A stretch of 64,000 nt of DNA from an uncultured virus (IMG/VR IMGVR_UViG_3300027971_000053) (IMGVR_UViG_3300027971_000053); one strand, 5' to 3'. Numbered from the stretch's first letter, positions 33,701-64,000 are shown. The notes: generated by a model from the sequence alone, not told the origin. Translations and numbers: made by a program.

Positions 33701-36700
33701 TAAATGCAATTCTTGATACAGCTCTTTCTTCTAAAGACCGCACAACATTTGAAGAAGCCAAACGTTTACTAGAAGAAGGCGTTAAAACTCGTGATACTAC
33801 TGACTACTCAGCCAGCGGTGTTGCTAAAGTTATGCCGGGCTTGGTAGACGCTATTAATGAACAAGCATATAGGGCGTCTTTAGGTAGAGAAATAGAAGCT
33901 AAAGAAACTTCACAAGCTATTGCCCGTGTTAAAGATGCGTTTGCTTCTCCAGTACAAACTGGTCCTAAAGGTAAAACCACTACTCAGCTAGAGTTTTTCC
34001 CGGGCGAAACAGCTACTATCAGGGCAGATGAAAAGAATTTAAGCCGCCTTGGGCAGCTTCGTAACGCTCGTGGTGCCGATGCTATTTCGTCAGGGCGTAA
34101 GTATTTTGCTGAGAAAGCTACTGGTGCGTTTAGACCAGCGGCTATGCTTAAGTATTTTGAAAGCCCTGAATTAGCCCAACTGCTTGACACTGCACAAGAG
34201 CTGCAAGCTGAAGGTAAAAAATACGCAAGCAAAGCAAAAGTGCTTAAGCGGCAGTCTACTAAAGATAAATACCGTGCAATGGCAGATGAAGCCTTTGCTA
34301 TGTACGACGAGACTATGGTAGAAGTTAACGAGTACGTTGACTTTATTGAAGATTACGCACGTAAAGCTATAGAAAAAGCAGACAAGCCAGCTGCTTTTAT
34401 TGCTGCGTTTGAAACACAAAAACAAACGGTACAAAAAGAACTTAGCAACGCTAAAAAAGTAATAGCTGCGCAAGAAGCTAAAGAGGCTGCTGCCGTAGAA
34501 GAAAAACTTACTGTTGCAAGAGCCAAACTTAAAAAAGCTAAAACAAGCGAAGAGCGAAACTTTTTGCTCGATGAAATTTCTGCTTTAGAAAAAACTAAAA
34601 GACCTGACATAGTAGACGAATTAGCCGCAGCTGAAAGAAAAGTGCGGGGCGCTAAAACGCTTAAACAAAAAATTGAAGCCCGTGCTGAGGTGCTTAAAAT
34701 TCAAAGTAACGCTTTAGATAACGTTATTAAAGACACCAAAGAGCGTATTGCTGAAGAACAAGCTAGCGCTGCACAACAAACTGGATTAGGCTTACCGGGT
34801 ACTAGAACTCAATTTAAAACACTGCCTCGTATGGAGGCAGAACTACCAAACCGTTTTCCAACAATTCAATCTAAATTTGAATTTGCTCGTACGTACTACA
34901 AAGAAATGCTTGCTGCTCGCAGCATGACTATGAACACTAAGCAGCGCCAAGCGCTTGTTGAAAAACGTAAAAAGTATGAAGACGCTGTAGTTAGTTTAGA
35001 TAAAGCGTTTAAGCAGAACAACGTAGACAGCCGGATTGCCACCGTGATGCGCAACATGGTTACGATGGAAGAAGGTACGCCTCAGTACAGAAAAGCTGAG
35101 AATTTAATACTAAGTATTGAAGAGCGTATTCAACAAGCTATTGCTGGTCTTAAACCTAAAACAGAAACTATTGCCATAAAAGGCGTAGAAACTAAAGAAG
35201 CTGTTGAAAACGAGGCTAAAGTAAAAGAAGTAATTGGAGAGTACTCATACGAAAGCGTTAAACCATCAGGTCCTGAACAAACCGCTGCTGAGAAAGCTGT
35301 TGGTCGCATATCTGAAACAGAACTGGCTAAGTTACGTAAAGTAAAACAAACCCGCTTTGACTTTGTTACCAAGCGTTTGGCAGATCAAAAAGCTCCAGTT
35401 GCAGATCGTGCTGCTCTTGTTGACGAATTACAGCGCAAAGAAAAAGGACCTAACGGACAAGAAATAACTGTTGGTCTTGAAGCTGAAATTAAAGCTATTG
35501 ATGAAATTCTTAACGCACGCCGTATTGGTATGGTTGTCGGTCAAGCGCAAGAAGAAAAAGGCTCTAAGAAGTACAAGGCAACTGTTACTGAAAAAGAAAT
35601 GGAGAAAGCCGGTAAGTTTGATAAAGCCGGTGTGCACCCAGAGTCTTATAGTCTTGTAGCTAAAGCATACAAAGACCGCACTGCTGACAAACAAAAACGA
35701 GAAGCAAATAAAACCCCAGCAGCTGTAACAAAACTGATTAAAGAAATTGCAGCGCTTCAAACTGAAATTCAATACGACAACTTACCTGCTCCTAAAATAG
35801 TTGAGAAGATGGCGTTAATTTCCGATAAAAGAGCTCAAGTTGAACGTGCTACTTTAGAGTTTACCGAAACGCTAGAAGCCAAAAAAATGGGTATCAGCGT
35901 TGAAGAGTACCGTCGTATCTTTAACTTTATGAACGCTGGTGAGTTTGTTTTTGACGCTGATGTCAGTCTTACTAAAGACCAAGTAGAAAAAGAAAACGCT
36001 AGAAGACGCAAAGAATCTGATGTTGATTTTCGTGTAGGTAGCGGTAAGTCTGTTGGTTTGCAAATGCTTAGAGCGGACGCTAAAGCTGTTGTTGACAAGA
36101 TTAAGTTACCTAAAGGGCTTGACATTACTGTTATACAAGAGCTTTCTCCAATGGTTAAAGAGTACATCCGTACTCGAGGCGTTGACCCTGAGAGCGTTAA
36201 AGGCTTTGTAACTAACAACGGCTCTGTAGTTATTGTTGCAGGCAAGCACGAAAATGCCAAAGACGTTGAAGCTACTGTTGCCCACGAAGTTATTGGTCAC
36301 TTGGGCGTTGAGCAAACGCTTGGTCAAGCCGGTATGGAAAAGCTGGTACAGCATATCACCGCACAAAAGGGCGGTGTAATGGGTCTTGCTTCTAAGCTAG
36401 GTGTTTGGAAAGAAGCCTATGGCGCATATGCTGCGGCTCTTAACTCAGGCAAAACCAAAGAAGAAGCCCAAGCCGATGCCGTGCATGAAATGATTGCGCA
36501 CGTTGAAGAAAAACGTCCGGGCAGAAGTGGCTTTGAAGACTTTAAGGTTTTTGTTAAGGCGTTGGTTGGTGTATTGCGTGCGGCTTTGCGTAAGTTCAAC
36601 ATTAACCTTGACATTGATACAAACGACATCTACAAGATTTTGCGTGATGCTCGTAAGAATTTTGACGCTGTGTCTCCCGGTCTTTACAAAAAAGAGAACG

Positions 36701-39339
36701 GCGAAATGCAATTTAACAGCACGCCTGCTGTGTTTGGTCCGGGTGGAGAGGCTTTCCAGCGTGCGGCTGATGCGCTTATGATTAAACAAAGACCGCTTAA
36801 AGATCGTTTTTTTCCAACTAATATTGGCTTAACGATTGAGCAAAAGTTTATTAAAGCGTCTGCTGGTTTAATGCGTGTTTACGAGAACACGGGTCTTTCT
36901 AAGACTGCTGATGCACTACAAACTCAATACTACATACAAAACCATAACCAACGATTTGCTTGGACTTCACAAGCTACAGCTCGTGGCGTACCAATTCTAC
37001 GCAAAGAAGAAGGCGGTAAGGGGTTTGTTCTTGAATCTAAAGAAGGCCCTAGCTTAAAGAAACTTGCTGAAATTTTAGGCAAAGCTAACTGGGGAAATGC
37101 AGAAGGCGTACGTAACGCATATAGCCTGTACAGAATAAGTAAGCGTGCTAAACGTGTTGGGCTATCTAAACTTGGCTTTAAGAAAGAAGAAGTCACAGAA
37201 AAGATGCTCAAGGATGTGGACGCAGCGGTATCTGCTAACAAACAACTAGCAGACATTTTTAAAGAAGCAGACGCTGTGTACGATCAGTACAACAAAAACT
37301 TAATGAACTTGTTGGTACAGACAGGGCGTATGTCTCAGAAAGTAGCTGACGACCTTACCAAACATAACGATTACATTCCGTTTTATAGGCAAGAAGCTAA
37401 TGGCGATGTATACCTAGAAATTGGCGGTGCGCCTCGTATACAAGTTGGTAACTTAAAAGATCAGCCTTATTTAAATGAGTTGGTTGGTAGCGACGAACGT
37501 ATCGTAGACATTTACCAAGGCGCTCTACAAAATACCAACATGGTTATGGATATGGCTTTGCGTAACCTAGCCACCCGTAATACCGCTTACTCTTTGGGCA
37601 AAATGGGTTTCCTTGAAAAAGGTAAGAACAAAGATGGTATTGGTATTCGCAAGGGTTTTGGAGAAACTAAAAATAATGTAATTCGTTTCTACGTACAGCC
37701 TGTTGACGAAAGCGATGATGGCAAACGTCATGTTATTTTGAAAGAAGATGTGGCTGGCGTACCTGCACAGTTTATTATTGAGGGCTTGGCTGGCGTTAAT
37801 ACATCTGTGCCGACGTTGATTAGTATGATGGGCGCTCCGGCAAGATTGTTACGCTCTTGGGTTACAAGAAGCCCTGTGTATGCTGCACGGCAGGTTGTTC
37901 GTGACCCGTTCATTGCTGTTATGGCTAACGGTGTTGATGTTGGTGGTGCGTTGAAGGCTTTTAAGATTATGGGTCAAGCCATTACTGGCAAGCCTGTAGA
38001 AGATGAGATTGGTCGTCTTGGTTTGATTGGTAGCAACGTGTTTACCGGAACCAATGAAGATGTGCAGAAAATCATGTTACAGATTACCAGCGGTAAAAAA
38101 GGCTGGGAATCTTACTTGGCTAAAGCAGATATGCTTGCGTTGCAAGGCGATGCAGCAACTCGTACAGCCGCATTTAATAACTTCCGTAAGCAAGGCTTAA
38201 GCGAAATAGAAGCAATTATTGCCACCTACGAACTGATGCCGTTTACTCAGCGTGGTACATCGTCTAGCTTGTATTTGCTTTCTACAATGGTGCCATTTAT
38301 GAACGCTCAAATACAGGGACTAAATGTCTTGTACAAAGCGTTTACAGGAAAGTCTACTTTCCAAGAGAAGTTGCGTATTAAAGAAAAGCTATGGCAGCGA
38401 GGTATGTTGATGTTTGGTATGTCTATGGCATACGCTATATTGATGAGCGAAGACGAAGCATACCAGAACGCTAACGACGATGAAAGACTTAACAACTGGT
38501 TTGTATATGTGCCGGGTGTTGATGAGCCAGTACGTGTACCTATTCCATTTGAATTAGGTATTGTGTTTAAAGCGTTGCCTGAGACAATTGTTAACATAGC
38601 AAGAGGCGACAGAACTGCTGCCGAAGGTATCAAGGGGTTGGGTAAGATGCTTGCTAACGCTGCGCCTATTGGACCAAGCTCAATACCGCAAGCCGTTAAA
38701 GCGCCGTTTGAAGTCATGGTAGATTACTCATTCTTTACACAACGAAGTATTGTTGGCGATCGTTTAAAAGATGTCGACCCTTCCGAGCGTTTTAATGCTA
38801 ACACTTCTGAAATTGCCAAATTTATTGGTAAAGGCACAGGTCAAATCCCTATCCTTGGTGAGTACCTATCACCTGTTCAGATTGAGTACTTGGTTCGTGG
38901 GTACACAGGCAGCTTGCCATTAGCCGTAGCTTCATTAACTAATCCGTTGTTTGGTAGCGAAGCCGGAGAAAAACCTACTTCTCGTGCTAGCGATTTACCT
39001 GTTGTTGGTTCTTTATTCCAACCTAAAGATGCCGGTGGTCTTATCAATCGTGCATACAAAGATATGGAAAGCGTTAACAGAGCTAAAGGGACTTACGACA
39101 AGCTGCTTGACGAAGGGCGTGAAAAAGAAGCTGACTCTTATGCAGATCGTTTTGCGGACATGCTTGATCTTGCGCCGCTTGCTGGGGACTTCCGTTCACG
39201 TATGGGGCAACTTGCTAAAGAAGAACGTGAGATTAAAGCGGATCCAAGTCTGTCAGGTCCCGAGAAACGCCGTCAACTTGATGAGATTCGTCAAGAACGC
39301 ATTGAACGCGCTAAAGAGTTTATTAGCGAACGCGGGTAA
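30787..39339 (+). CDS. Giant polyvalent internal virion protein (zincin-like motif plus LPD38-like C-terminus)
   Basis: 2850 aa; N-terminal Gly/Ala hydrophobic region, long coiled coil, VAHEVIGHLG (HEVIGH at 36283-36300) then HEMIAH, C-terminal RVPIPFELG. Confidence 0.75.
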   Translation: MPYLRLPDGSYMDVPEGVSQREALAHAKEKYKDLFQPVEKPDTGLTGAAKASYQTLKGDVAALAGRAGLMDVGEAEKYQKERQAEAQRVFKPTEEGWTEAPFLKARELIGGSLPYMAAPIAVGGAAALGGAPVAAGAGLAGLASGLQFTGSNLSRQMNTGKALKDTDLMAAGAAAIPQAALDVVGFRFLPGVQKIFKSAGVELSEQAAKKVIEAGTLKTAGQYVVGGAKIGGIEGATEAGQQFFERLQAGLNIGDEQARKEYLESFIGGAVLGGIASPFGVAGKRGEAKDVIAKEQAKRDLEASKLAEEQQLADIQAKKDAELQAVQERKTKIEQMGLELYQAKPDLLKKLEELNTQAQRVTDLDELATLSQQAQDVQAQLNNLDPELVGANLKKLKKENDALKGQINKAEKDGNEDLRTELSTKYNENAAAIEEKALRLEALKYKPIVPPDVQKIQEKLNAAQKQLQKAKEQGDLVSVGRIVAKIKEYQSIPEYQEYAAEQKRIGEERSKRAATSADILAQEEQANQANEEIEAGNVVTMRKPPKKKYVDLPRLQQYYNSSVEQLNAKLAESSKAPALEIPEGQSAQETIAMVQQKFPEAFMSPEQRKNANINLPPADPEVQKLIKKVQDAKDMLEEHRPVTYSREQAKPDLAQQLVDKFTAPEQKLPTELTPEQKKAESARLAKLDGLKKDYYDSFDAYKKIIDESEAASQGTGKGKRLYGYNGRPLQASEKAIEAFNKYVEAKNAYLQVMSEGTPTPANAIKGLEAAQDVALLDLTDTIDSMRKGEFFGGPNPAAASSFLGTLAQKARTELEKYKEATLSQIDYVRQGRGMDALTEDAKAEINGQLESLLAGKIERATGKLARVLKAGEKAAPEDTAIRAAFEKAGFKFEPIATGEKEILTGFSREELADVKDAVNKIKDKALQKERKFGKLTRESTGDLFTEGRIKNTKKARKTDVELDDAEQAVRGVNAILDTALSSKDRTTFEEAKRLLEEGVKTRDTTDYSASGVAKVMPGLVDAINEQAYRASLGREIEAKETSQAIARVKDAFASPVQTGPKGKTTTQLEFFPGETATIRADEKNLSRLGQLRNARGADAISSGRKYFAEKATGAFRPAAMLKYFESPELAQLLDTAQELQAEGKKYASKAKVLKRQSTKDKYRAMADEAFAMYDETMVEVNEYVDFIEDYARKAIEKADKPAAFIAAFETQKQTVQKELSNAKKVIAAQEAKEAAAVEEKLTVARAKLKKAKTSEERNFLLDEISALEKTKRPDIVDELAAAERKVRGAKTLKQKIEARAEVLKIQSNALDNVIKDTKERIAEEQASAAQQTGLGLPGTRTQFKTLPRMEAELPNRFPTIQSKFEFARTYYKEMLAARSMTMNTKQRQALVEKRKKYEDAVVSLDKAFKQNNVDSRIATVMRNMVTMEEGTPQYRKAENLILSIEERIQQAIAGLKPKTETIAIKGVETKEAVENEAKVKEVIGEYSYESVKPSGPEQTAAEKAVGRISETELAKLRKVKQTRFDFVTKRLADQKAPVADRAALVDELQRKEKGPNGQEITVGLEAEIKAIDEILNARRIGMVVGQAQEEKGSKKYKATVTEKEMEKAGKFDKAGVHPESYSLVAKAYKDRTADKQKREANKTPAAVTKLIKEIAALQTEIQYDNLPAPKIVEKMALISDKRAQVERATLEFTETLEAKKMGISVEEYRRIFNFMNAGEFVFDADVSLTKDQVEKENARRRKESDVDFRVGSGKSVGLQMLRADAKAVVDKIKLPKGLDITVIQELSPMVKEYIRTRGVDPESVKGFVTNNGSVVIVAGKHENAKDVEATVAHEVIGHLGVEQTLGQAGMEKLVQHITAQKGGVMGLASKLGVWKEAYGAYAAALNSGKTKEEAQADAVHEMIAHVEEKRPGRSGFEDFKVFVKALVGVLRAALRKFNINLDIDTNDIYKILRDARKNFDAVSPGLYKKENGEMQFNSTPAVFGPGGEAFQRAADALMIKQRPLKDRFFPTNIGLTIEQKFIKASAGLMRVYENTGLSKTADALQTQYYIQNHNQRFAWTSQATARGVPILRKEEGGKGFVLESKEGPSLKKLAEILGKANWGNAEGVRNAYSLYRISKRAKRVGLSKLGFKKEEVTEKMLKDVDAAVSANKQLADIFKEADAVYDQYNKNLMNLLVQTGRMSQKVADDLTKHNDYIPFYRQEANGDVYLEIGGAPRIQVGNLKDQPYLNELVGSDERIVDIYQGALQNTNMVMDMALRNLATRNTAYSLGKMGFLEKGKNKDGIGIRKGFGETKNNVIRFYVQPVDESDDGKRHVILKEDVAGVPAQFIIEGLAGVNTSVPTLISMMGAPARLLRSWVTRSPVYAARQVVRDPFIAVMANGVDVGGALKAFKIMGQAITGKPVEDEIGRLGLIGSNVFTGTNEDVQKIMLQITSGKKGWESYLAKADMLALQGDAATRTAAFNNFRKQGLSEIEAIIATYELMPFTQRGTSSSLYLLSTMVPFMNAQIQGLNVLYKAFTGKSTFQEKLRIKEKLWQRGMLMFGMSMAYAILMSEDEAYQNANDDERLNNWFVYVPGVDEPVRVPIPFELGIVFKALPETIVNIARGDRTAAEGIKGLGKMLANAAPIGPSSIPQAVKAPFEVMVDYSFFTQRSIVGDRLKDVDPSERFNANTSEIAKFIGKGTGQIPILGEYLSPVQIEYLVRGYTGSLPLAVASLTNPLFGSEAGEKPTSRASDLPVVGSLFQPKDAGGLINRAYKDMESVNRAKGTYDKLLDEGREKEADSYADRFADMLDLAPLAGDFRSRMGQLAKEEREIKADPSLSGPEKRRQLDEIRQERIERAKEFISERG

Positions 39340-57561: not shown

Positions 57562-58416
57562 TTACTTGCTGATTGAAATAGTTGCATTGCTTAGGTACGA
57601 GTCAACCGCACCATCGATCTTGTCGCTGACCACATCATCAATGCGATCGCCAACTGCATCACTCACCGCATCATCGAAGTCGAAGTGGTAGCTTGGGTCA
57701 AAGTTATTCTCGAAGTAAGACTCAACCTCACTCTCCACAACTTCTTGCACAGCGTCTTTGGCTAGGTCTTCGATGCCTGCCCCGATCAACTCATGTCGCA
57801 CCAAGTCTTTGAACCAGTCTGCTTGTTGTAGTGTGAGTGATACGCATTCTTGGAGAGAATTCTCTCCAGCCTCGGGTTGGGCTTTAGATTGGCTGATGAC
57901 CGAAGTAAGAAGCTGAAGCTGGGTACAGATGTTGTTGATGATGTCGGCTAGGGTTGGGGTAGCCTGTGGTTCGGGTGCGCCGAGTGTACCCCCGTGTGTG
58001 TACTGAATTGCATCAGGGTTTGGTAGGCGTATGTTGTCTACTATGTCCTGCATTGTTGGTTCGGGTATAGCCCTGTTCTCCACAAGTGAGTGCAATACTT
58101 CCTTGGTTTCTCTCGGCACTTCGGGTGCGTTAAGGTGGTCGAGTAATAGTTCTTTCAATCCGATATTTTCCATCTGCTTAAACTCCTCGTCTTGTTCGTG
58201 GGTTGTAGGTACTGCGTTGTTAAGGTCTTGCATTGTGAATGTGGTCATGCTGTTTCTCCTTGTGGTAATGGTTCGATTGATTTCATCTACTTCGGCGATA
58301 ACCCACTCATCTGTGGGCTCAAAGATTTCCATAGCTATTTCGCAGGCATCTTCGGGACTCTCTGCCTCAACTAACTCAACGGAATAGCTAGCTACTACAA
58401 CTCGGTACTCTTTCAT
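57562..58416 (-). CDS. Acidic hypothetical early protein (second strong start at 58248)
   Basis: 284-aa ORF; internal AAGGAGAAACAGC-ATG; very acidic C-terminus. Confidence 0.65.
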   Translation of the reverse strand: MKEYRVVVASYSVELVEAESPEDACEIAMEIFEPTDEWVIAEVDEINRTITTRRNSMTTFTMQDLNNAVPTTHEQDEEFKQMENIGLKELLLDHLNAPEVPRETKEVLHSLVENRAIPEPTMQDIVDNIRLPNPDAIQYTHGGTLGAPEPQATPTLADIINNICTQLQLLTSVISQSKAQPEAGENSLQECVSLTLQQADWFKDLVRHELIGAGIEDLAKDAVQEVVESEVESYFENNFDPSYHFDFDDAVSDAVGDRIDDVVSDKIDGAVDSYLSNATISISK

Positions 58417-58868
58417 ACGCTTTCTCCTATCGCTTGGTTGAACTGCTCGGATACACCTACTTCTACTTCTTCGCTACTATGCTTACTTCTAATCGTTACA
58501 TACGCACCACCATCTGTGATGGCTATTTCCTGATGTCCTATACCACCCCACCCATTTTCTATATCACAGTCAATACCTAAATGAAACACGATTGATTGCG
58601 CCCCTTGAAGGGACTTGACTAGCCCTCGTGCCATCTTGTACTCCAATATGTAGTCGTCTTTGATCGTGACATCAATCCATACAGGCAGGTCGGTGTACTC
58701 GCTGTTGGTGTACATATCCTCGGTAAACTCGATGGGGTGTGAGCAGTCTTTCTTTAGCTCAGCCCATGCTTGCGCCCAATCTTCTTGCGTATCAGGGTCT
58801 GTTGGTGGTTCGCTAAGCCACTCGTTGTCCCCACTATGTAAGTACATGTATCGTCTGCTGTTACTCAT
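58413..58868 (-). CDS. Acidic hypothetical early protein
   Basis: Start reassigned to MSNSRR after AGGA; ATGA overlap downstream. Confidence 0.6.
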   Translation of the reverse strand: MSNSRRYMYLHSGDNEWLSEPPTDPDTQEDWAQAWAELKKDCSHPIEFTEDMYTNSEYTDLPVWIDVTIKDDYILEYKMARGLVKSLQGAQSIVFHLGIDCDIENGWGGIGHQEIAITDGGAYVTIRSKHSSEEVEVGVSEQFNQAIGESV

Positions 58869-58870
58869 CT

Positions 58871-59005
58871 CTATTTCCTTTCTCCTAGTTCGCATAGTTT
58901 GGCTATGCACCATAACAACCCAGCAAATAACCCAAAGGTAAGACCAACGGATATAAGCCAAGCACCTATCTCCAACAACCAATACGCCCAATCAATTGCT
59001 TCCAT
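58871..59005 (-). CDS. Small membrane protein (44 aa, not in ORF track)
   Basis: MEAIDWAYWLLEIGAWLISVGLTFGLFAGLLWCIAKLCELGERK; GGAG RBS. Confidence 0.55.
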   Translation of the reverse strand: MEAIDWAYWLLEIGAWLISVGLTFGLFAGLLWCIAKLCELGERK

Positions 59006-59249
59006 GACTAAACTCCGAGTAGCCACAGTTCTCAACTAAATGGCGTGCCATATCACTAATGAGGGTTTCAATCTCATCTAGCACTTCGCCACCATACTTA
59101 AACTCCCACTCAGTCAACGCACTACTTACTTCGTTAATGCGTTCCCACTCAGCTACGCTATCGTCTCGTGCTGGTGGTGCGGTAAGGCAATGAATGATGT
59201 TAGGTAAGTCTTCTTCTAATGCGGTTTCATACTCTGTGTAGTAACTCAT
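58992..59249 (-). CDS. Acidic hypothetical early protein
   Basis: 85 aa; GAGGAG RBS. Confidence 0.6.
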   Translation of the reverse strand: MSYYTEYETALEEDLPNIIHCLTAPPARDDSVAEWERINEVSSALTEWEFKYGGEVLDEIETLISDMARHLVENCGYSEFSHGSN

Positions 59250-59611
59250 ACCAACTCCTCCTCTCGTGCTAATACGCCTTCAATAAACCCATTAACAAAG
59301 CTAGGCAAGCCATCATCAACGGGGTCGTGATCTTTTAGGTATAGCTTTGTAGCGTGTGCCTCTAACTCTTGTATGTACTCATCGTCATACACCCAGTCGT
59401 ATGTCTCAACAGGGCGAATGATGTACAGGTAGTTTGTGGTATCAACGCCATCTTTTGCGAACTTGAACTTCATGCGGTCGATCTCCGCTTTCGCTTCTTC
59501 TACATACAGATAGCCATACTTGGCATACACACATTTGCCAGCCAACCCACCATCGAATACATCTACTGTGTACGACTCGCCTTTCGGCACTTGCTTTAGT
59601 CTGCCTCTCAT
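59246..59611 (-). CDS. Hypothetical early protein
   Basis: 121 aa; AAGGAG RBS. Confidence 0.65.
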   Translation of the reverse strand: MRGRLKQVPKGESYTVDVFDGGLAGKCVYAKYGYLYVEEAKAEIDRMKFKFAKDGVDTTNYLYIIRPVETYDWVYDDEYIQELEAHATKLYLKDHDPVDDGLPSFVNGFIEGVLAREEELV

Positions 59612-59671
59612 AATGATTCTCCTTGTCTAATAGATTGTGCTAGTTGTTGGAGAGAATTCTCTCCGTCTCTT

Positions 59672-59779
59672 TTAAAACCACACCCACAACATAAAGGCAC
59701 GAAACATCTGTGCGATAAAGAAAAGTGCAACTAAAGCTAGCACCGCCCATATAAACCGATCTTCGTCCATCCATTTCAT
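59672..59779 (-). CDS. Small membrane peptide (35 aa, not in ORF track)
   Basis: MKWMDEDRFIWAVLALVALFFIAQMFRAFMLWVWF; ATGA overlap. Confidence 0.5.
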   Translation of the reverse strand: MKWMDEDRFIWAVLALVALFFIAQMFRAFMLWVWF

Positions 59780-60417
59780 AATGCACCTACCTTTCTTCGT
59801 TTGATTAACTCGTTGATTTTGATGCTTGGAGAGATTTCTCTCCCGTCCTTTGCTTGCTCAAGCAAGTCTTGTCTTATTCGTTTAGCCTCTGCGTAGTTGT
59901 AGCTATGTTGATCTAGCAAAGCGTGTTGTAGGGGTGTTGCGTCTTCGGGCATTTGATTCTTGTATGAGTAGTAGCGGCTAGCATACGCCGTGACCTGTTT
60001 TTGTAGGTTTGTTTTAAGTTCATCTTGCCACAGGGTTCGCTTCTTCTGCCAATACTCTTTCATTACCTTTGCCCTTTTCTTGGGCAGGGCTTCACGCTTC
60101 TCGGCTATCAGGGCTTCGCCTATCGTGGGGTTCATGTCCCCGCTACTTATTTTATTTCTTATCTCTTTGATGCTTAGCGGTGTTCTGCGTTTGCGTTGGT
60201 TTCTACAGTCTTTGCACAATGAGCTGTACAGCGTGTGCCGTGTGGTTAGGTTCGGTTTGCGTAGCAACGCTTTGCTCTGTGCAAGGGTGAGCACCCGATG
60301 GAAATCTTTTTTGGGTTTGGTTTCACCGCAAGTTTTGCACAGAAGAGTGATGACCGAAGTTGGGAGAGAATTCTCTCCGAGTTGTGTGTTGACGGATTTT
60401 CCCTTGTGCTGGTGCAT
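59776..60417 (-). CDS. Basic Zn-finger-containing early protein
   Basis: AAGGAG RBS before MHQHK; CKTCGETK...CKDC. Confidence 0.65.
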   Translation of the reverse strand: MHQHKGKSVNTQLGENSLPTSVITLLCKTCGETKPKKDFHRVLTLAQSKALLRKPNLTTRHTLYSSLCKDCRNQRKRRTPLSIKEIRNKISSGDMNPTIGEALIAEKREALPKKRAKVMKEYWQKKRTLWQDELKTNLQKQVTAYASRYYSYKNQMPEDATPLQHALLDQHSYNYAEAKRIRQDLLEQAKDGREISPSIKINELIKRRKVGAL

Positions 60418-60434
60418 GATGTTCTCCTTAAAAA

Positions 60435-60735
60435 TCTGCCAATAGTCTACCAATTCACTGCAGGTGGACGCAGTACTAGACGCCACGAGAAGTATACATT
60501 ATAAGGCTTGAGAGATATAGTGACCAAGATATATACGAGTCACAGAGTTTTATTAAAGTAACTAAGTTTTTCAACAAGATTACTCTGTCCACTTTTTTCT
60601 CTCTTATTATTATGTATTCTATTCTCTTTTATATATATATAGGTAGGTTGCCAAGTTGACGCAATCATATTCTATATACCTTTGGGGGTGTCCACTATGT
60701 GTCCACTAGTGCTCAAATGGTAGACTATTGGCAGA
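60435..60735. repeat. 18-bp perfect inverted repeat flanking an AT-rich non-coding core
   Basis: TCTGCCAATAGTCTACCA (60435-60452) / TGGTAGACTATTGGCAGA (60718-60735). Confidence 0.9.
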
Positions 60736-60805
60736 AAAGGGGGTAAAAGGTGTTCTCCACAATAGCTTGCAGAGAACCTATGTGATGGAGAGAATTCTCT
60801 CCGAG

Positions 60806-61021
60806 TCATGCCCACTTAGAGCGAGCCAATGCGACTGTTGTCACAATGAACCAACCATCTTGAAAGCCATCATTAGCACCTAACTTCTTGAGTGCATTGA
60901 GTGCTGTCTTGTAGTGGTCGTGGCATTTCATTGTGCCGTCAGTATCTCGTTGGAATGAACAGATAAGCCCGTCCTCTTTGTAGATAACATGATAGCCCGT
61001 TGGGTTGAGTTTCTTTTTCAT
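60806..61021 (-). CDS. Hypothetical early protein
   Basis: 71 aa; AAGGAG RBS. Confidence 0.6.
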   Translation of the reverse strand: MKKKLNPTGYHVIYKEDGLICSFQRDTDGTMKCHDHYKTALNALKKLGANDGFQDGWFIVTTVALARSKWA

Positions 61022-61025
61022 GGTG

Positions 61026-61184
61026 TTACTCCTTATGTTGTTTGTAAATGGTGATGCTGAACTGATTGAACGCTGACTGCATGGATACTTCTACCTCTAC
61101 TTCTTTGGGTTTTGTGCAGGGTTTCTGCACAACTTGTTGCTTAGCCTGAGCCTTAAGTAAGGCGCATTGTTGCTTGGTTAACAT
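61026..61184 (-). CDS. Hypothetical early protein (52 aa, not in ORF track)
   Basis: MLTKQQCALLKAQAKQQVV...; AAGGAG RBS. Confidence 0.55.
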   Translation of the reverse strand: MLTKQQCALLKAQAKQQVVQKPCTKPKEVEVEVSMQSAFNQFSITIYKQHKE

Positions 61185-61321
61185 GGTGATTCTCCTTTGT
61201 AGTGCTTCTGTAATATGGTTTCGATCTTTAGTACTGTGGTGCGTAGGTGCTTGGCAATGTATTCGGGAGATCGACCCTTGTGATACATCAAGCAGACGAT
61301 AAAGCTAGAGAACATAGTCAT
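61178..61321 (-). CDS. Small HTH-like early protein (47 aa, not in ORF track)
   Basis: MYHKGRSPEYIAKHLRTTVLKIETILQKHY fits an HTH pattern; GAGGAG RBS, ATGA overlap. Confidence 0.55.
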   Translation of the reverse strand: MTMFSSFIVCLMYHKGRSPEYIAKHLRTTVLKIETILQKHYKGESPC

Positions 61322-61542
61322 ACTTGCTCCTCGTATGTTCTGAACCAAAAGGCTAGGCTTTCGTGTGTGCCAGACCTATTATCAGACGGCTCGTTACTAA
61401 ACCGCAGTACATACTGATGGTCGCACTTGTACATATCCGCAGGCTCATACTTTTGAATAGGCACAAACACAGTACCCAAGAACTGACAGGCAGGACAATC
61501 GTGTTCGTACAAAGGTGTTGCTAAGTGTTTCATTGATGACAT
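61318..61542 (-). CDS. Hypothetical early protein with HDCxxC motif
   Basis: YEHDCPACQFLG; AAGGAG RBS. Confidence 0.65.
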   Translation of the reverse strand: MSSMKHLATPLYEHDCPACQFLGTVFVPIQKYEPADMYKCDHQYVLRFSNEPSDNRSGTHESLAFWFRTYEEQV

Positions 61543-61584
61543 GGTGTTTCTCCTTCGTTGGTTGGGAGAGAATTCTCTCCGAGG

Positions 61585-61812
61585 TTAACCCCACACAGAG
61601 ATGTGTGAAGTGAGTTCATACGACAAGCGATCGTGGAGATCGTCCCAATCATATGTGGTGAGCCTGTGCTTTTGATCTCTAGCCAACTCAATGAGTTTGG
61701 CAAGGTCTTGCGGAGACATGGACAATACAACGCTGTTCCGCTTGAACTCTTTGTAGTCAATGGCTATTGGCTTAGCCTTCTTTGGGATTGGTTTTGCTGG
61801 TGCTTTTTGCAT
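61585..61812 (-). CDS. Hypothetical early protein
   Basis: 75 aa; AGGAG RBS. Confidence 0.6.
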   Translation of the reverse strand: MQKAPAKPIPKKAKPIAIDYKEFKRNSVVLSMSPQDLAKLIELARDQKHRLTTYDWDDLHDRLSYELTSHISVWG

Positions 61813-61899
61813 GATTAACTCCTGTGTTGTGGTACTTGTTGGTGGGAAAGGGCAAGACTTGACACGAAACTAAACAGCCTTGAAGCCTCGCCCTCTCGG

Positions 61900-62322
61900 T
61901 TACTTGCGTGAAACACGCTTGAAAAACTTCTCCTGCTGAGCTTTAGTCATTGACTCAACCAAAGCCAAAGCCTGCTCCACAACATCTACCTGAGCTGATA
62001 CTGTTGCTGAGTCCTTCTTAGTCTCAGGGCGAATGATGTGATACCTAAAGTCAGAATAGGCTCTTGAATAGGCGTTGTTGTGCTCCTTGTTGCGTTGTGT
62101 ACGGCTCTTGGAGAGAATTCTCTCCGCAACTTGTTGCGTAACATCTAACTGACCCATCAAGTGTTGCGTGACCCACTCCTTGAGCCTGTCGGCTCGTGTT
62201 GTGCTGTCGGCTTTCTTGTACTCCAAATGCCACACAAGAGATGACTCACGCAACAAGCGGGCTTGAGTGCCTAGACCAAAGGCGAATTGTGAATAAGATA
62301 CAACGATTGAGTTTTGTTTCAT
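61900..62322 (-). CDS. First gene of the leftward (early) operon, hypothetical
   Basis: 140 aa; AAGGAG RBS; contains one palindrome copy. Confidence 0.7.
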   Translation of the reverse strand: MKQNSIVVSYSQFAFGLGTQARLLRESSLVWHLEYKKADSTTRADRLKEWVTQHLMGQLDVTQQVAERILSKSRTQRNKEHNNAYSRAYSDFRYHIIRPETKKDSATVSAQVDVVEQALALVESMTKAQQEKFFKRVSRK

Positions 62323-62344
62323 GGTATTACTCCTTGATTAAGAT

Positions 62345-62376
62345 AAAAAAAATCGGCTGAAAACTTCTCAACCGAT
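62345..62376 (-). terminator. Terminator-like hairpin in the early leader
   Basis: - strand ATCGGTTGA-GAAGTTT-TCAGCCGAT followed by a T-tract. Confidence 0.55.
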
Positions 62377-62382
62377 ACCTCT

Positions 62383-62388
62383 ATTATA
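62383..62388 (-). promoter_or_regulatory. Putative -10 box of early promoter
   Basis: Perfect TATAAT on - strand; no convincing -35. Confidence 0.45.
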
Positions 62389-62626
62389 AAGATTGGGGTA
62401 TTTTTTAAACGATTTGAACCCCACCCGATACCCACCAACCTGTTTGGTCGTCAAGCCTGCTTGTCCCCCAGATCACTGTTCCTCAGCCATTCCGTTGAAT
62501 TTTGTCAAATCTTGTATAAAAGCGATTTACCGGGGGGTATAAATTTTATAAAAAATGCTAGGGGTTATGTCAAACTTTATACAGAAAAGTGCATGAAATT
62601 TCAATAAAAAAACATGCAAAACTAAA

Positions 62627-62657
62627 TGATGCAGCGCAACAAAATGTGTAATATAAT
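62627..62657 (+). promoter_or_regulatory. Promoter with TGATGCAGCGCAACA dyad over the -35 region
   Basis: TATAAT at 62652-62657; imperfect dyad at 62627-62641. Confidence 0.5.
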
Positions 62658-62687
62658 ACACAAACTAATAACCTAAAGGAGAAAACC

Positions 62688-62804
62688 ATGTTTGATTTCA
62701 CTAAACAAACCAAGCAGTTCGAGCAGTTGGCAGAGCGCATCAAGGAAGTAAACGATTTTTGGATCGACGCTTTTATTTCAAGCATCAAGCAGTTCACTAA
62801 GTAA
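62688..62804 (+). CDS. 38-aa amphipathic peptide (not in ORF track)
   Basis: AAGGAG RBS; MFDFTKQTKQFEQLAERIKEVNDFWIDAFISSIKQFTK; own promoter; hairpin after stop. Confidence 0.7.
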   Translation: MFDFTKQTKQFEQLAERIKEVNDFWIDAFISSIKQFTK

Positions 62805-62891
62805 TAAAAAACCCCCACGTCTTAGGTGGGGGTTCAAAAAATGCCCTACTAATCAACACCAACGCCCAAACGAAGGAGGAAAAGCGCTGGT
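62805..62891 (-). ncRNA. Candidate ~87-nt sRNA with anti-Shine-Dalgarno loop
   Basis: TATAAT at 62898-62903 (-); 10-bp 5' stem with loop UUCCUCCUUCGUUU; 3' terminator with U-tract. Confidence 0.55.
62806..62834 (-). terminator. Intrinsic terminator (U-tract on - strand), probably shared with the convergent peptide gene
   Basis: AAAA-AACCCCCAC-GTCTTAG-GTGGGGGTT on +. Confidence 0.7.
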
Positions 62892-62974
62892 AAACAAATT
62901 ATACACAAAAACTAAAAAACAATATATACTCCAGCCATACGTGAGCACCACACGCAACCAAAGGGGAATAGCAT

Positions 62975-63553
62975 TTGTTTTTAGAACACCTAGTCACAGC
63001 ATCTGCAGCAGACTTTGTACCGGACATCCTGCCCGACAAGACCCCTTTCACTGAATTAAATACCACCACACCAGCGCAAACGCTAAACGCCCAGAAGAAA
63101 ACATCTGACTGGTTAGCCCAGTTTGACGACGATGACGAAGCAACGCTTACTAAAACCCAAGAAGAAAAAGTAACCGACACTTTCAACGCTTTAACCCGTG
63201 CAGACCCCAACGCAAAAAACAAATTACTACAGCTCGACCTGCCAGAAGAGATAAAAGCAGCTATTGGAATGGTGACGGCCTACCAGTGGAAGTTTGTTGA
63301 GCAGGCAGAAAACTTAAGAAGCCTTGCGGTATCGAAAATAGTAAAAGAAATTGAGCACCCCGACGCCCGTATCAGGCTTAAAGCATTGGAAATGCTAGGA
63401 AAAGTTACAGAAGTGGCGTTGTTCACCGACAGAGTCCAAGTAAAAACAGAAGAAATCAGTGACGAAGAGTTAGATAAACAGATCAAAGACAAACTTGAGC
63501 GGTACATGGGCGCTGTTGATGTAGTAGATGCCGATGTTAAGGATGTAGAGTAG
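62975..63553 (+). CDS. Putative terminase small subunit
   Basis: Directly upstream of TerL; RLKALEMLGK motif; TTG start after AAGGGG. Confidence 0.6.
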   Translation: MFLEHLVTASAADFVPDILPDKTPFTELNTTTPAQTLNAQKKTSDWLAQFDDDDEATLTKTQEEKVTDTFNALTRADPNAKNKLLQLDLPEEIKAAIGMVTAYQWKFVEQAENLRSLAVSKIVKEIEHPDARIRLKALEMLGKVTEVALFTDRVQVKTEEISDEELDKQIKDKLERYMGAVDVVDADVKDVE

Positions 63554-63555
63554 TC

Positions 63556-64000
63556 GTGGATTTAGATTTTTTAACTCCCGAAGAAGCCTTGGCAGCACAA
63601 AAGGCACTCAAAGACATGAATAAAGCGCAAAAGATTGCATATCTGAATCTTTTGGAGAAGAAAGAAGAGCGCGGTAATTTAAAACTAGCGCAGACAAGCC
63701 CGATAGAGTTCGCAAAACGCGTATATCCTGGGTTTAAAGTAGGCCCGCACCATAGAAGGTTAGCTAAAATCTTCCAAGACGTAGTCGATGGTAAGAAAAA
63801 GCGGGTTATTATTAATATTGCACCACGTATGGGTAAGTCGGAGTTCAGCTCTTACTTATTCCCCGCCTATTTTTTAGGCAACTTCCCCCATAAGAAGATC
63901 ATCATGGGAACCCATACGGCGTCTCTCTCCGAAGACTTTGGTCGACGGGTAAGGAACTTAATTGACTCAGAAGAATACAGAGAAATCTTCCCAGATACCG
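63556..64000 (+). CDS. terL: Terminase large subunit, N-terminal part (3' truncated)
   Basis: Open from GTG 63556; PHHRRL, RVIINIAPRMGKS Walker A, FGRRVRN. Confidence 0.88.
   Translation, partial: MDLDFLTPEEALAAQKALKDMNKAQKIAYLNLLEKKEERGNLKLAQTSPIEFAKRVYPGFKVGPHHRRLAKIFQDVVDGKKKRVIINIAPRMGKSEFSSYLFPAYFLGNFPHKKIIMGTHTASLSEDFGRRVRNLIDSEEYREIFPDT

What the first reader, a model, noticed from the sequence alone, without database searches (positions are those of the whole stretch)
62805..62903. Candidate phage sRNA displaying an anti-Shine-Dalgarno loop
Seen on the - strand: a perfect TATAAT (62903-62898), then 6 nt later a stem ACCAGCGCUU/GGGCGUUGGU. Its three non-Watson-Crick positions are G-U pairs on this strand but A-C mismatches on the other, which fixes the orientation. 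The loop is UUCCUCCUUCGUUU, and a GC-rich terminator with a U-tract ends near 62805. There is no ORF. CCUCCUU is the 16S anti-SD sequence. CUCCUUCGUU is a perfect 10-nt complement of the RBS region of the early gene starting at 61542 (AACGAAGGAG). UUUUC-CUCCUU also pairs, with one bulge, with the RBS of the adjacent 38-aa gene (AAGGAGAAAA). Inference: a trans-acting translational repressor of AAGGAG-led early genes or host mRNAs, or the antitoxin of a type I-like pair. The -35 is weak.
Basis: partly seen in the sequence, partly recalled or inferred. Interest (0 to 1): 0.8.

Follow-up and report, generated by a model that had tools for sequence, protein, structure and literature searches.

The report
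Conserved phage small RNA with anti-RBS loop
This is a real, previously uncatalogued small RNA gene shared by a large group of uncultured phages; its exposed loop is complementary to an unusual extended ribosome-binding site found on many of the phages' own early genes, so it probably dampens their translation.

Summary
On the - strand, TATAAT (62903-62898) is followed by a 10-bp hairpin (62891-62858) with the loop UUCCUCCUUCGUUU, and by an intrinsic terminator (62835-62806).

The element recurs at the same place, divergent from the small-terminase gene, in 73 of 80 related viral contigs (48 distinct sequences). The stems covary strongly: 14 of 18 pairs show double changes, 96.8% of cells are paired, and 0 of 500 shuffles reach the observed score. 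The loop stays constant. G-U pairs, the U-tract and the -10 box all fix the - strand.

No Rfam family reaches threshold; the best is anti-hemB at 25 bits against 49.5. Across the family the conserved loop core is UCCUUCGUUUGG, not the 16S-like CCUCCUU.

The complement of that core, ACGAA(A)GGA(G), is a recurrent ribosome-binding site of early genes on the sRNA's strand. Of 55 same-strand occurrences, 48 sit just before a start codon, ahead of about 28-35 different genes. Matches reach 16 nt and exceed mock loops.

Best reading: a trans-acting sRNA that masks these sites. Expression and repression are untested. The site is not kept in orthologues, and the window holds only one 10-nt site. The type I antitoxin idea is not supported.

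The parts
62898..62903 (-). -10 box TATAAT of the sRNA promoter; the -35 is weak
   Evidence: TATAAT/TATACT-like boxes sit at the same distance from the stem in relatives. Three groups carry instead TTTACA-N17-TACAAT. The consensus scan does not call this promoter.
62805..62891 (-). Predicted sRNA transcript of about 87 nt. The 5' end at A62891 is inferred (7 nt after the -10 box); the 3' end lies in or after the U-tract.
   Evidence: Covariance model R1 scores it at 99.9 bits over 62805-62892.
62858..62891 (-). Hairpin 1: arms 62891-62882 and 62867-62858; loop 62881-62868, UUCCUCCUUCGUUU (the seed)
   Evidence: Eight of 10 pairs show compensatory changes in 42 distinct sequences. Loop core UCCUUCGUUUGG is conserved. 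Most loop bases have unpaired probability of 0.9 or more.
62836..62857 (-). Linker. In 38 of 48 distinct relatives it carries one to three further CU motifs (UUCCUUG, CAUCCUC); the window's copy has none.
62806..62835 (-). Intrinsic terminator: stem 62835-62809 and U-tract 62811-62806. It also ends the convergent 38-aa gene.
   Evidence: Six of 8 pairs show compensatory changes. The U-tract is only on the - strand.
61540..61559 (-). Best candidate target in the window: AACGAAGGAG (61559-61550), then a 7-nt spacer and the ATG (61542-61540) of a 74-aa early gene
   Evidence: Duplex with the loop is -16.2 to -20.7 kcal/mol, against -8.8 for a plain anti-SD control. The extension is not kept in 3 orthologues.
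62688..62804 (+). Convergent 38-aa gene. It is a neighbour, probably not a partner.
   Evidence: It is conserved in 14 of 84 searched sequences and is hydrophilic.
62902..62974 (+). Divergent late (TerS) promoter-like site TACACA-17-TATACT (62902-62930) and TerS leader with a conserved hairpin (62941-62955). This bounds the sRNA gene.

Best explanation
An 87-nt small RNA gene of a phage lies on the - strand between the early (- strand) and late (+ strand, TerS/TerL) gene blocks. It appears to be transcribed by the host RNA polymerase from its own -10 box and ended by an intrinsic terminator.

The RNA folds into a stable hairpin. Its 14- to 18-nt loop (family core UCCUUCGUUUGG) stays single-stranded. 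The loop is complementary to an extended ribosome-binding site, (CC)AAACGAA(A)GGAG, that precedes many early genes of these phages. In this window that site is the RBS of the 74-aa gene starting at 61542.

Pairing of the loop with such sites would cover the Shine-Dalgarno sequence and lower translation of a subset of early genes as the RNA accumulates.

Shown here: the gene's anatomy, its conservation, the covariation, its orientation, the conserved loop, and the excess of complementary RBSs.

Inferred: that it is transcribed, that it pairs in trans, that the effect is repression, and the timing.
For: (1) Conservation at a fixed place. The core motif lies 92-160 nt upstream of TerS on the opposite strand in 73 of 80 TerS-related viral loci. 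Four of the 7 misses have 81 nt or less of upstream DNA. There are 48 distinct sequences.

(2) Structure. On 42 distinct sequences, 96.8% of cells are paired and 14 of 18 pairs show double changes (143 cells). The covariation score is 0.55, against 0.196 for shuffles (0 of 500 reach it) and 0.03-0.09 for slid controls. RNAalifold finds the same two helices. Forty-two of 48 sequences fold more stably on the - strand.

(3) Orientation. Helix 1 has many G-U cells, which would be A-C on the + strand. The U-tract and the -10 box are on the - strand only.

(4) Seed. The loop core is constant while the stems change. In the L075-L081 variants the same motif sits single-stranded after a different hairpin.

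(5) Targets.
- Relatives carry 13-16-nt perfect complements of their own loop directly before start codons on the sRNA strand.
- In six genomes, 17 predicted RBSs have 10 nt or more, against 6.25 +/- 2.65 for loops with shuffled flanks (0 of 500). Ten have 11 nt or more, against 1.97 (0 of 500).
- Of the 28 sites with 9 nt or more, 27 are on the sRNA strand.
- ACGAA(A)GGA occurs 55 times on that strand, 48 times at RBS distance, before 35 different N-termini.
- 'ACG' before AAGGA occurs 14 times against 3.1 expected, and CGA before AAGGA 16 times against 2.1, in 234 RBSs.
- Loops with an extra U go with RBSs with an extra A: 16/9 against 1/6, Fisher p = 0.033 (matrix).

(6) Phage-specific. Thirty-two of 80 pattern hits in viral contigs are true copies by the model, against 0 of 80 in bacterial and archaeal genomes.

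(7) The nearest described RNAs, CU-rich double-hairpin sRNAs of Burkholderia, are reported to pair with RBS regions (PMC5688073, passages read).
Against: - No expression data. One run labelled metatranscriptomic but probably DNA holds contigs of relatives, which show neither strand nor ends.
- In this window only one site reaches 10 nt. About 1.2 chance 10-mers are expected in a 64-kb window (my estimate), and three were found, one at an RBS.
- The extension is not kept in orthologues. Three orthologues of the 74-aa gene have plain AAGGAG or AGGAG RBSs. The window's 140-aa gene lacks the 14-15-nt site that its orthologues in L005 and L056 have.
- The early-versus-late difference in predicted pairing is matched by a plain anti-SD control: window p = 4.6e-4 against 1.7e-4. 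The loops for G003-G006 were cut short in that call.
- The loop/RBS co-variation is weak (p = 0.033), is not corrected for relatedness, and has many exceptions: 9 class-A cases have the extra A.
- The six genomes are related, so the counts are not independent.
- Gene starts come from my own crude caller.
- The host is unknown.
Confidence: 0.55

Rival explanations
1. General anti-Shine-Dalgarno RNA aimed at the host. The loop mimics the 16S 3' tail and pairs with strong SD sequences of host mRNAs (host shut-off or reprogramming). Matches to phage RBSs are a by-product.
For: - The window's loop contains CCUCCUU.
- The best Rfam resemblances are to CU-rich Burkholderia sRNAs, one family of which is described as toxic when cloned in E. 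coli.
- Predicted pairing tracks plain SD strength.
- A host target conserved in one host genus would explain why the seed is constant while phage target sites move between genes.
Against: - CCUCC is not conserved: C at that position occurs in 8 of 38 class-A sequences, and many loops read UUUCCUUCG. The non-SD extension CGUUUGG is nearly invariant.
- The extension is matched by phage RBSs above mock-loop expectation.
- The host is unknown, so no host target could be examined.
Confidence: 0.2
2. Protein-binding decoy. The displayed loop is recognised by a host or phage protein (for instance one that handles the 16S 3' end, or Hfq-type chaperones), and the RNA titrates it.
For: A constant loop on a variable stem is also what a protein-recognition hairpin looks like. 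There is a U-rich stretch before the terminator.
Against: - No partner protein was identified.
- Neighbouring genes vary.
- The excess of complementary RBSs on the same strand would be unexplained.
- In L075-L081 the motif is kept but the hairpin context is lost.
Confidence: 0.08
3. Antitoxin of a type I-like pair with the adjacent convergent 38-aa gene.
For: The 38-aa gene is convergent and shares the terminator. Its RBS, AAGGAGAAAA, pairs with the loop with one bulge at -10.5 kcal/mol.
Against: - The 38-aa protein is hydrophilic: GRAVY -0.49, and the best 11-residue window is 1.04.
- The gene gives hits in 14 of 84 related sequences, while the sRNA is in 73 of 80 loci.
- Its predicted pairing is no better than for ordinary early RBSs.
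Confidence: 0.03
4. Not a trans-acting RNA. Either a + strand cis element (an RBS-like hairpin in a long TerS leader), a DNA-level inverted repeat, or merely a bidirectional terminator with a chance hairpin.
For: - On the + strand the loop reads as a perfect RBS (AAGGAGG).
- The terminator also closes the + strand 38-aa gene.
- The + strand fold is also below the shuffle mean, z = -1.88.
Against: - G-U pairs become A-C on the + strand.
- No start codon or conserved ORF follows the + strand SD. The stem arms covary and are not codon-like.
- The TerS promoter-like site lies downstream of the element on the + strand.
- An inverted repeat bound by a protein would keep its sequence, not covary.
Confidence: 0.04

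Closest known systems
Burkholderia 'double-hairpin' CU-rich sRNAs (Rfam RF02278, 'Betaproteobacteria toxic small RNA': ncS03, ncS05, ncS27, ncS62)
   Same: - Short RNA made almost entirely of a first hairpin plus a terminator hairpin.
[quoted passage not shown]
- Predicted interactions concentrated on RBS regions of many genes (PMC5688073 and PMC4603805, passages read).
   Different: - Scores 17.3 bits against a gathering score of 50, so it is not a member.
- It is phage-borne, not chromosomal.
- The conserved seed carries a specific extension (CGUUUGG).
- Its best complements are the phage's own early RBSs.
anti-hemB / ncS04 (Rfam RF02837, Burkholderia RNA 7)
   Same: The whole model (positions 1-81 of 81) aligns: a first hairpin with a UCCUCC-type loop, a middle part and a terminator. 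E = 0.012 in 6 kb.
   Different: - 25 bits against a gathering score of 49.5. Most of the score comes from the terminator and the CU loop.
- The middle helix is not matched.
- No relative reaches any Rfam gathering score: 19 loci were scanned and only a tRNA was found.
Phage and prophage RBS-masking antisense RNAs: P1/P7 c4 (RF01695), DicF, and lambda OOP / P22 sar (the last three recalled)
   Same: Phage-encoded small RNAs whose loops pair with the RBS region of a target mRNA and block translation. For c4 this is from the review PMC12197685, passages read.
   Different: - No Rfam match to C4 at E up to 10 in 58000-64000.
- Those RNAs act on one or a few targets (ant, ftsZ, cII) in temperate phages.
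- Here the complementary motif precedes dozens of different early genes in an apparently lytic-type genome layout.
T4 RegA-type translational repression of early mRNAs (recalled; a protein, not an RNA)
   Same: The proposed outcome is the same: one phage product that recognises a shared feature of several early RBSs and turns their translation down.
   Different: The effector here would be an RNA acting by base pairing. There is no homology, and the analogy is functional only.

Membership tests
Rfam RF02837 anti-hemB | Covariance-model score at or above the curated gathering score (49.5 bits) | tested here: not met
   25.0 bits, E = 0.012 (6 kb) or 0.00062 (301 nt).
Rfam RF02278 Betaproteobacteria toxic small RNA | Covariance-model score at or above the gathering score (50 bits) | tested here: not met
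   17.3 bits. Nineteen relatives gave no hit at gathering level.
Rfam RF02278 Betaproteobacteria toxic small RNA | Two-hairpin architecture with a CU-rich unpaired region complementary to RBSs | tested here: met
   The family description comes from PMC5688073.
Rfam RF02278 Betaproteobacteria toxic small RNA | Growth inhibition when expressed in E. coli or the host | not testable with these tools
   Needs a bench test.
Rfam RF01695 C4 antisense RNA (P1/P7) | Match to the C4 model | tested here: not met
   Not among matches at E up to 10 in 58000-64000 or 62700-63000.
Type I toxin-antitoxin pair | Adjacent small, hydrophobic, membrane-active toxin gene that co-occurs with the RNA | tested here: not met
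   The 38-aa product has GRAVY -0.49, and the best 11-residue window is 1.04. The gene gives hits in 14 of 84 related sequences, against the sRNA in 73 of 80 loci.
Trans-acting base-pairing sRNA (generic kind) | Own promoter and intrinsic terminator delimiting a short non-coding transcript | tested here: met
   Conserved -10 box and terminator with a U-tract. The promoter's activity itself is inferred.
Trans-acting base-pairing sRNA (generic kind) | Conserved single-stranded seed on a covarying scaffold | tested here: met
Trans-acting base-pairing sRNA (generic kind) | Seed-complementary sites at target RBSs above chance | tested here: met
   17 sites against 6.25 for mock loops at 10 nt or more, 0 of 500. 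Caveats: related genomes and crude gene starts.
Trans-acting base-pairing sRNA (generic kind) | Target sites conserved in orthologous genes | tested here: not met
   Three orthologues of the 74-aa gene lack the extension. The site of the 140-aa gene family is present in L005 and L056 but not in the window.
Trans-acting base-pairing sRNA (generic kind) | The RNA is expressed and changes target translation | not testable with these tools
   No RNA holder is on record. Only contigs from one ambiguous run were found.

The most novel reading that the evidence does not exclude
These phages use a private translation code. Dozens of early genes carry an 'ACG-extended' Shine-Dalgarno sequence, (CC)AAACGAA(A)GGAG, that the ribosome does not need. 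A single phage sRNA reads it through a conserved, co-evolving loop. The RNA would then act as an RNA counterpart of T4 RegA: a genome-wide early-gene shut-off or timer encoded in 87 nt. It would be widespread in an uncultured freshwater phage clade and absent from RNA family databases.
Probability: 0.3. Interest if true: 0.75.

Novelty: new member of a known kind. Interest (0 to 1): 0.6.

Why it matters
Few sRNAs of non-model phages have a mechanism that can be proposed from sequence alone.

This one offers three things:
- a well-delimited gene;
- a covariation-supported fold;
- a conserved seed with a recurrent complementary motif on the phage's own early genes.

Together these give a directly testable case of RNA-based control of the early programme in a large uncultured phage clade: at least 226 TerS relatives in the viral collection, and 32 of 80 pattern hits confirmed.

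It also yields a covariance model that can annotate the boundary between early and late genes in such contigs.

If the extended RBS motif is truly read by the RNA, it would show that phages can mark sets of genes for joint translational control with a few bases upstream of the SD.

Tried and rejected
- DNA search of named phages (blastn, 1301 nt): no match. A protein search with the primase/helicase gave only matches of 26% identity or less, to Rhizobium and Pseudomonas phages, so no host could be named.
- The window's own assembly is not held. The nearest record, G001, is identical over the region and adds nothing.
- MAFFT alignment of 46 sequences (A1) mis-registered the 5' arm and was dropped. 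It was replaced by a model-based alignment.
- Genome-collection scan with a 16-nt loop pattern: at least 120 hits in very diverse taxa, of which 80 were fetched. None matches the model; the best E-value is 0.11. These are chance or RBS-like matches.
- Sequencing runs: no RNA holder listed. One run (X1, labelled metatranscriptomic, probably DNA) holds contigs of relatives at 90-96% identity over 62474-62943. Contigs show neither strand nor ends.
- The pattern ACGAARGGA was mis-specified and served only to obtain handles.
- Duplex-energy comparison for G003-G006 used loops cut short by my extraction. Only the window and G002 figures are usable.
- The AACTTTACAAT promoter motif of some relatives is not enriched in the window: 2 matches against 2.8 expected.
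- Pairing of the loop with the TerS leader (-13.4 kcal/mol, interrupted) was judged unconvincing.
- Supplements of PMC10690425, the catalogue of 8,495 viral candidate structured RNAs: the readable tables hold no loop motif, but the zip files with alignments and models could not be read.

Full report
**What is there**

Read on the - strand, the region shows the following in order.
- TATAAT at 62903-62898, followed by six bases.
- A perfect 10-bp stem: ACCAGCGCUU (62891-62882) with GGGCGUUGGU (62867-62858). It has three G-U pairs.
- The stem closes the 14-nt loop UUCCUCCUUCGUUU (62881-62868).
- A 22-nt linker.
- A G+C-rich terminator hairpin (62835-62809; 10 pairs) and a U-tract (62811-62806).

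The 98-nt - strand RNA folds at -31.4 kcal/mol (z = -2.85; 0 of 200 shuffles as good). The + strand folds at -25.1 kcal/mol (z = -1.88; 7 of 200). Most loop bases are unpaired in the ensemble, with probability 0.9 or more; two positions are near 0.55.

**Setting**

The window is a phage genome.
- Structural and packaging genes are on the + strand. These are TerS at 62975-63553 and TerL from 63556 (PHROG hits), and a long + strand block at 1-39339.
- Replication and small 'early' genes are on the - strand at 62322-39501. They include a primase/helicase.
- The sRNA gene sits at the divergence point. It is back-to-back with a + strand promoter-like site (62902-62930) that precedes TerS.
- It is convergent with a 38-aa + strand gene (62688-62804).

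No named phage is close. There is no blastn match, and protein identity is at most 26% to Rhizobium and Pseudomonas phages. The host is unknown.

**Conservation and covariation**

The TerS protein finds 226 relatives in the viral collection. The best 80 loci were kept, at 60-99% identity.
- The loop core is found 92-160 nt upstream of TerS, on the opposite strand, in 73 of the 80 loci.
- Four of the 7 misses have 81 nt or less of upstream DNA. Three (L073, L074, L076) lack the motif.
- There are 48 distinct sequences.
- Almost every one folds on its own into the same hairpin with the motif in the loop. Forty-two of 48 fold more stably on the - strand than on the + strand.

A covariance model was built from 8 equal-length copies (A2, R1). 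It recovers the element in the window and in 68 of 79 loci. The only other matches are five weak ones at E of 0.2 or more.

On the model-based alignment of 43 sequences, 42 of them distinct (A4):
- 96.8% of cells pair.
- 14 of 18 pairs show changes on both sides, in 143 cells.
- The covariation score is 0.55, against 0.196 for shuffles (0 of 500 reach it) and 0.03-0.09 for partners slid by 1-3 columns.
- Hairpin 1 has compensatory changes in 8 of 10 pairs. The terminator has them in 6 of 8.
- RNAalifold independently returns the same two helices.

That alignment is fitted to the model, which favours pairing. The alignment-free single-sequence folds show the same thing. Many helix-1 cells are G-U and would be A-C on the + strand. 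Together with the U-tract and the -10 box, this fixes the - strand.

**What is conserved in the loop**

Across 38 distinct 'class A' sequences, the bases beyond the search anchor are nearly fixed.
- U before CC in 35 of 38.
- ...CGUUU, then G in 37 of 38, then G in 34 of 38.
- The C that would make the 16S-like CCUCC is present in only 8 of 38.

Ten 'class B' sequences carry one extra U (CCUUUCG). The family core is therefore UCCUUCGUUUGG. The only change seen at the G of UUCG is to A. In the L075-L081 variants the hairpin is different, and the same motif lies single-stranded between hairpin and terminator. Thirty-eight of 48 copies have one to three more CU motifs in the linker. The window's copy has none.

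**Known families**

- In Rfam 15 the best matches are sub-threshold. Anti-hemB scores 25 bits (gathering score 49.5) and 'Betaproteobacteria toxic small RNA' scores 17.3 bits (gathering score 50).
- No C4 match appears.
- Nineteen relatives give no gathering-level hit except a tRNA.
- The resemblance is one of architecture. Papers on Burkholderia cenocepacia describe RF02278 members as 'double-hairpin' RNAs. Their CU-rich unpaired stretches are reverse complements of RBSs and are predicted to cover RBS regions. Over-expression of ncS27 slows growth (PMC5688073 and PMC4603805, passages read).
- The element is phage-specific in my samples. Of 80 fetched pattern hits in viral contigs, 32 match the model at E of 0.01 or less, about half in contigs outside the TerS top 80. 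Of 80 fetched hits in bacterial and archaeal genomes, none matches; the best E-value is 0.11.

**Targets**

In the window the longest complements of the loop are three 10-mers. One is AACGAAGGAG at 61559-61550, 7 nt before the ATG of a 74-aa early gene. Its duplex energy is -16.2 to -20.7 kcal/mol, against -8.8 for a plain anti-SD control. Alone, this is not compelling.

The relatives change the picture. On the sRNA's strand, directly before start codons, they carry perfect complements of their own loops:
- 16 nt in L044.
- 15, 12 and 12 nt in L056.
- 14 and 11 nt in L005.
- 14 nt in L012.
- 13 and 10 nt in L040.
- 13 nt in L063, matching its variant loop.

In six genomes (the window and five long contigs fetched whole), counts at predicted RBSs compare with loops whose flanks were shuffled as follows.

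| Complement length | Observed | Mock loops | Mock runs reaching observed |
|---|---|---|---|
| 9 nt or more | 28 | 17.35 | 10 of 500 |
| 10 nt or more | 17 | 6.25 +/- 2.65 | 0 of 500 |
| 11 nt or more | 10 | 1.97 | 0 of 500 |

Twenty-seven of the 28 sites with 9 nt or more are on the sRNA strand.

Over all loci, ACGAA(A)GGA occurs 55 times on that strand. Forty-eight of these are 3-13 nt before a start codon opening 30 codons or more. They precede 35 different N-terminal octapeptides, about 28 after merging obvious orthologues by eye. The 73 occurrences on the other strand should mostly be the sRNA genes' own antisense; I did not check them one by one.

Among 234 distinct AAGGA-type RBSs, the three bases before AAGGA are ACG 14 times (3.1 expected) and CGA 16 times (2.1 expected). 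Pairing with the 16S tail does not explain this excess.

Loops with the extra U tend to go with RBSs with the extra A: 16/9 against 1/6, Fisher p = 0.033. The cross-genome matrix shows the same trend.

**Weak points**

- The genomes are related, so these counts are not independent.
- Gene starts come from my own simple caller.
- The co-variation test has many exceptions and is uncorrected.
- Early genes simply have stronger SDs than late genes, and a plain anti-SD control separates early from late as well as the loop does in the window (p = 1.7e-4 against 4.6e-4).
- Target sites are not kept in orthologues. Three orthologues of the 74-aa gene have ordinary RBSs. The window's 140-aa gene lacks the 14-15-nt site that its L005 and L056 orthologues have. 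The motif therefore moves between genes while the seed stays fixed. That fits a multi-target regulon with turnover. It equally leaves room for an unseen constant target in the host.
- Expression could not be tested.

**Rivals**

- The type I antitoxin idea fails. The 38-aa gene is real (conserved, with synonymous-type changes), but it is hydrophilic and appears in only 14 of 84 searched sequences.
- A + strand or DNA-level reading is contradicted by the G-U pairs, by the covarying arms and by the absence of any ORF after the + strand SD.
- A host-directed general anti-SD role, or a protein decoy, cannot be excluded.

**Novelty**

- The kind of element is known: a trans-acting sRNA whose CU-rich loop masks RBSs.
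- The family is not in Rfam 15.
- My literature searches found no description of it. These were (listings), plus passages of PMC12197685, PMC5688073, PMC4603805 and PMC10690425.
- The 2023 catalogue of 8,495 candidate structured RNAs from IMG/VR (PMC10690425) may contain it under a number. Its alignment files could not be read here.

I rate it a new member of a known kind. The bolder reading is an RNA-read 'extended SD code' that shuts off early genes.

Noticed in passing
L003, L006, L008, L012, L014, L020, L007, L011 (one copy) and L018, L022 (two tandem copies), immediately 3' of the sRNA terminator on the sRNA strand; absent from the window: A second conserved structured RNA candidate of about 75 nt sits behind its own TATACT box. 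It has a small hairpin with conserved loop UCACGU whose stem covaries (GUCC/GGAC against GCUC/GAGC), and a long G-rich stem (GGGGGUGGUAG with CUACUACCCCC). No Rfam gathering-level hit in the 19 loci, which include L003, L012, L018 and L022 of these.
   Followed up: partly
window about 62530-62340, - strand: The early leader RNA has stretches conserved in relatives (GGCUGAGGAACAGUG ... CAGGUUGGUGGGUAUCGGGUGGGGU). It ends in an intrinsic terminator (62376-62352) just before the RBS of the first early gene (ATG at 62322). This looks like an attenuator or antitermination-type leader. The only Rfam hit is a chance-level RsaOG match.
   Followed up: no
window 62941-62974, + strand: The TerS leader has a hairpin, CGUGAGCACCACACG, followed by CAACCAAAGGGG before a TTG start. 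It is conserved in nearly all relatives and its stem covaries (CGCG...CGCG in L055). It may be a translational operator or a packaging-related signal.
   Followed up: no
L025, L026, L039, L041, L063, L065, upstream of the sRNA: The usual sRNA promoter is replaced by two copies of AACTTTACAAT, which together form TTTACA-N17-TACAAT, a full sigma-70-type promoter. The motif is not enriched in the window: 2 one-mismatch matches against 2.8 expected.
   Followed up: partly
window 62688-62804, + strand: A 38-aa hydrophilic protein gene with a strong RBS is convergent with the sRNA. It is conserved at 38-92% identity in 14 of 84 related sequences. Its function is unknown.
   Followed up: partly
window 62322-54000, - strand: Early genes have a stereotyped strong RBS, AAGGAG[A/U]A...ACC ATG, on A/C-rich leaders such as CCAACCAACG. 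Late + strand genes mostly have shorter SDs such as UAAGGA or AAAGGA.
   Followed up: partly
window 30787-39339, + strand: A 2850-aa ORF whose C-terminal part matches only PHROGs of unknown function.
   Followed up: no
L073, L074 (TerS 62% identical): These relatives lack the sRNA upstream of TerS and carry different DNA there. L073 has a tRNA gene at 2373-2445.
   Followed up: no
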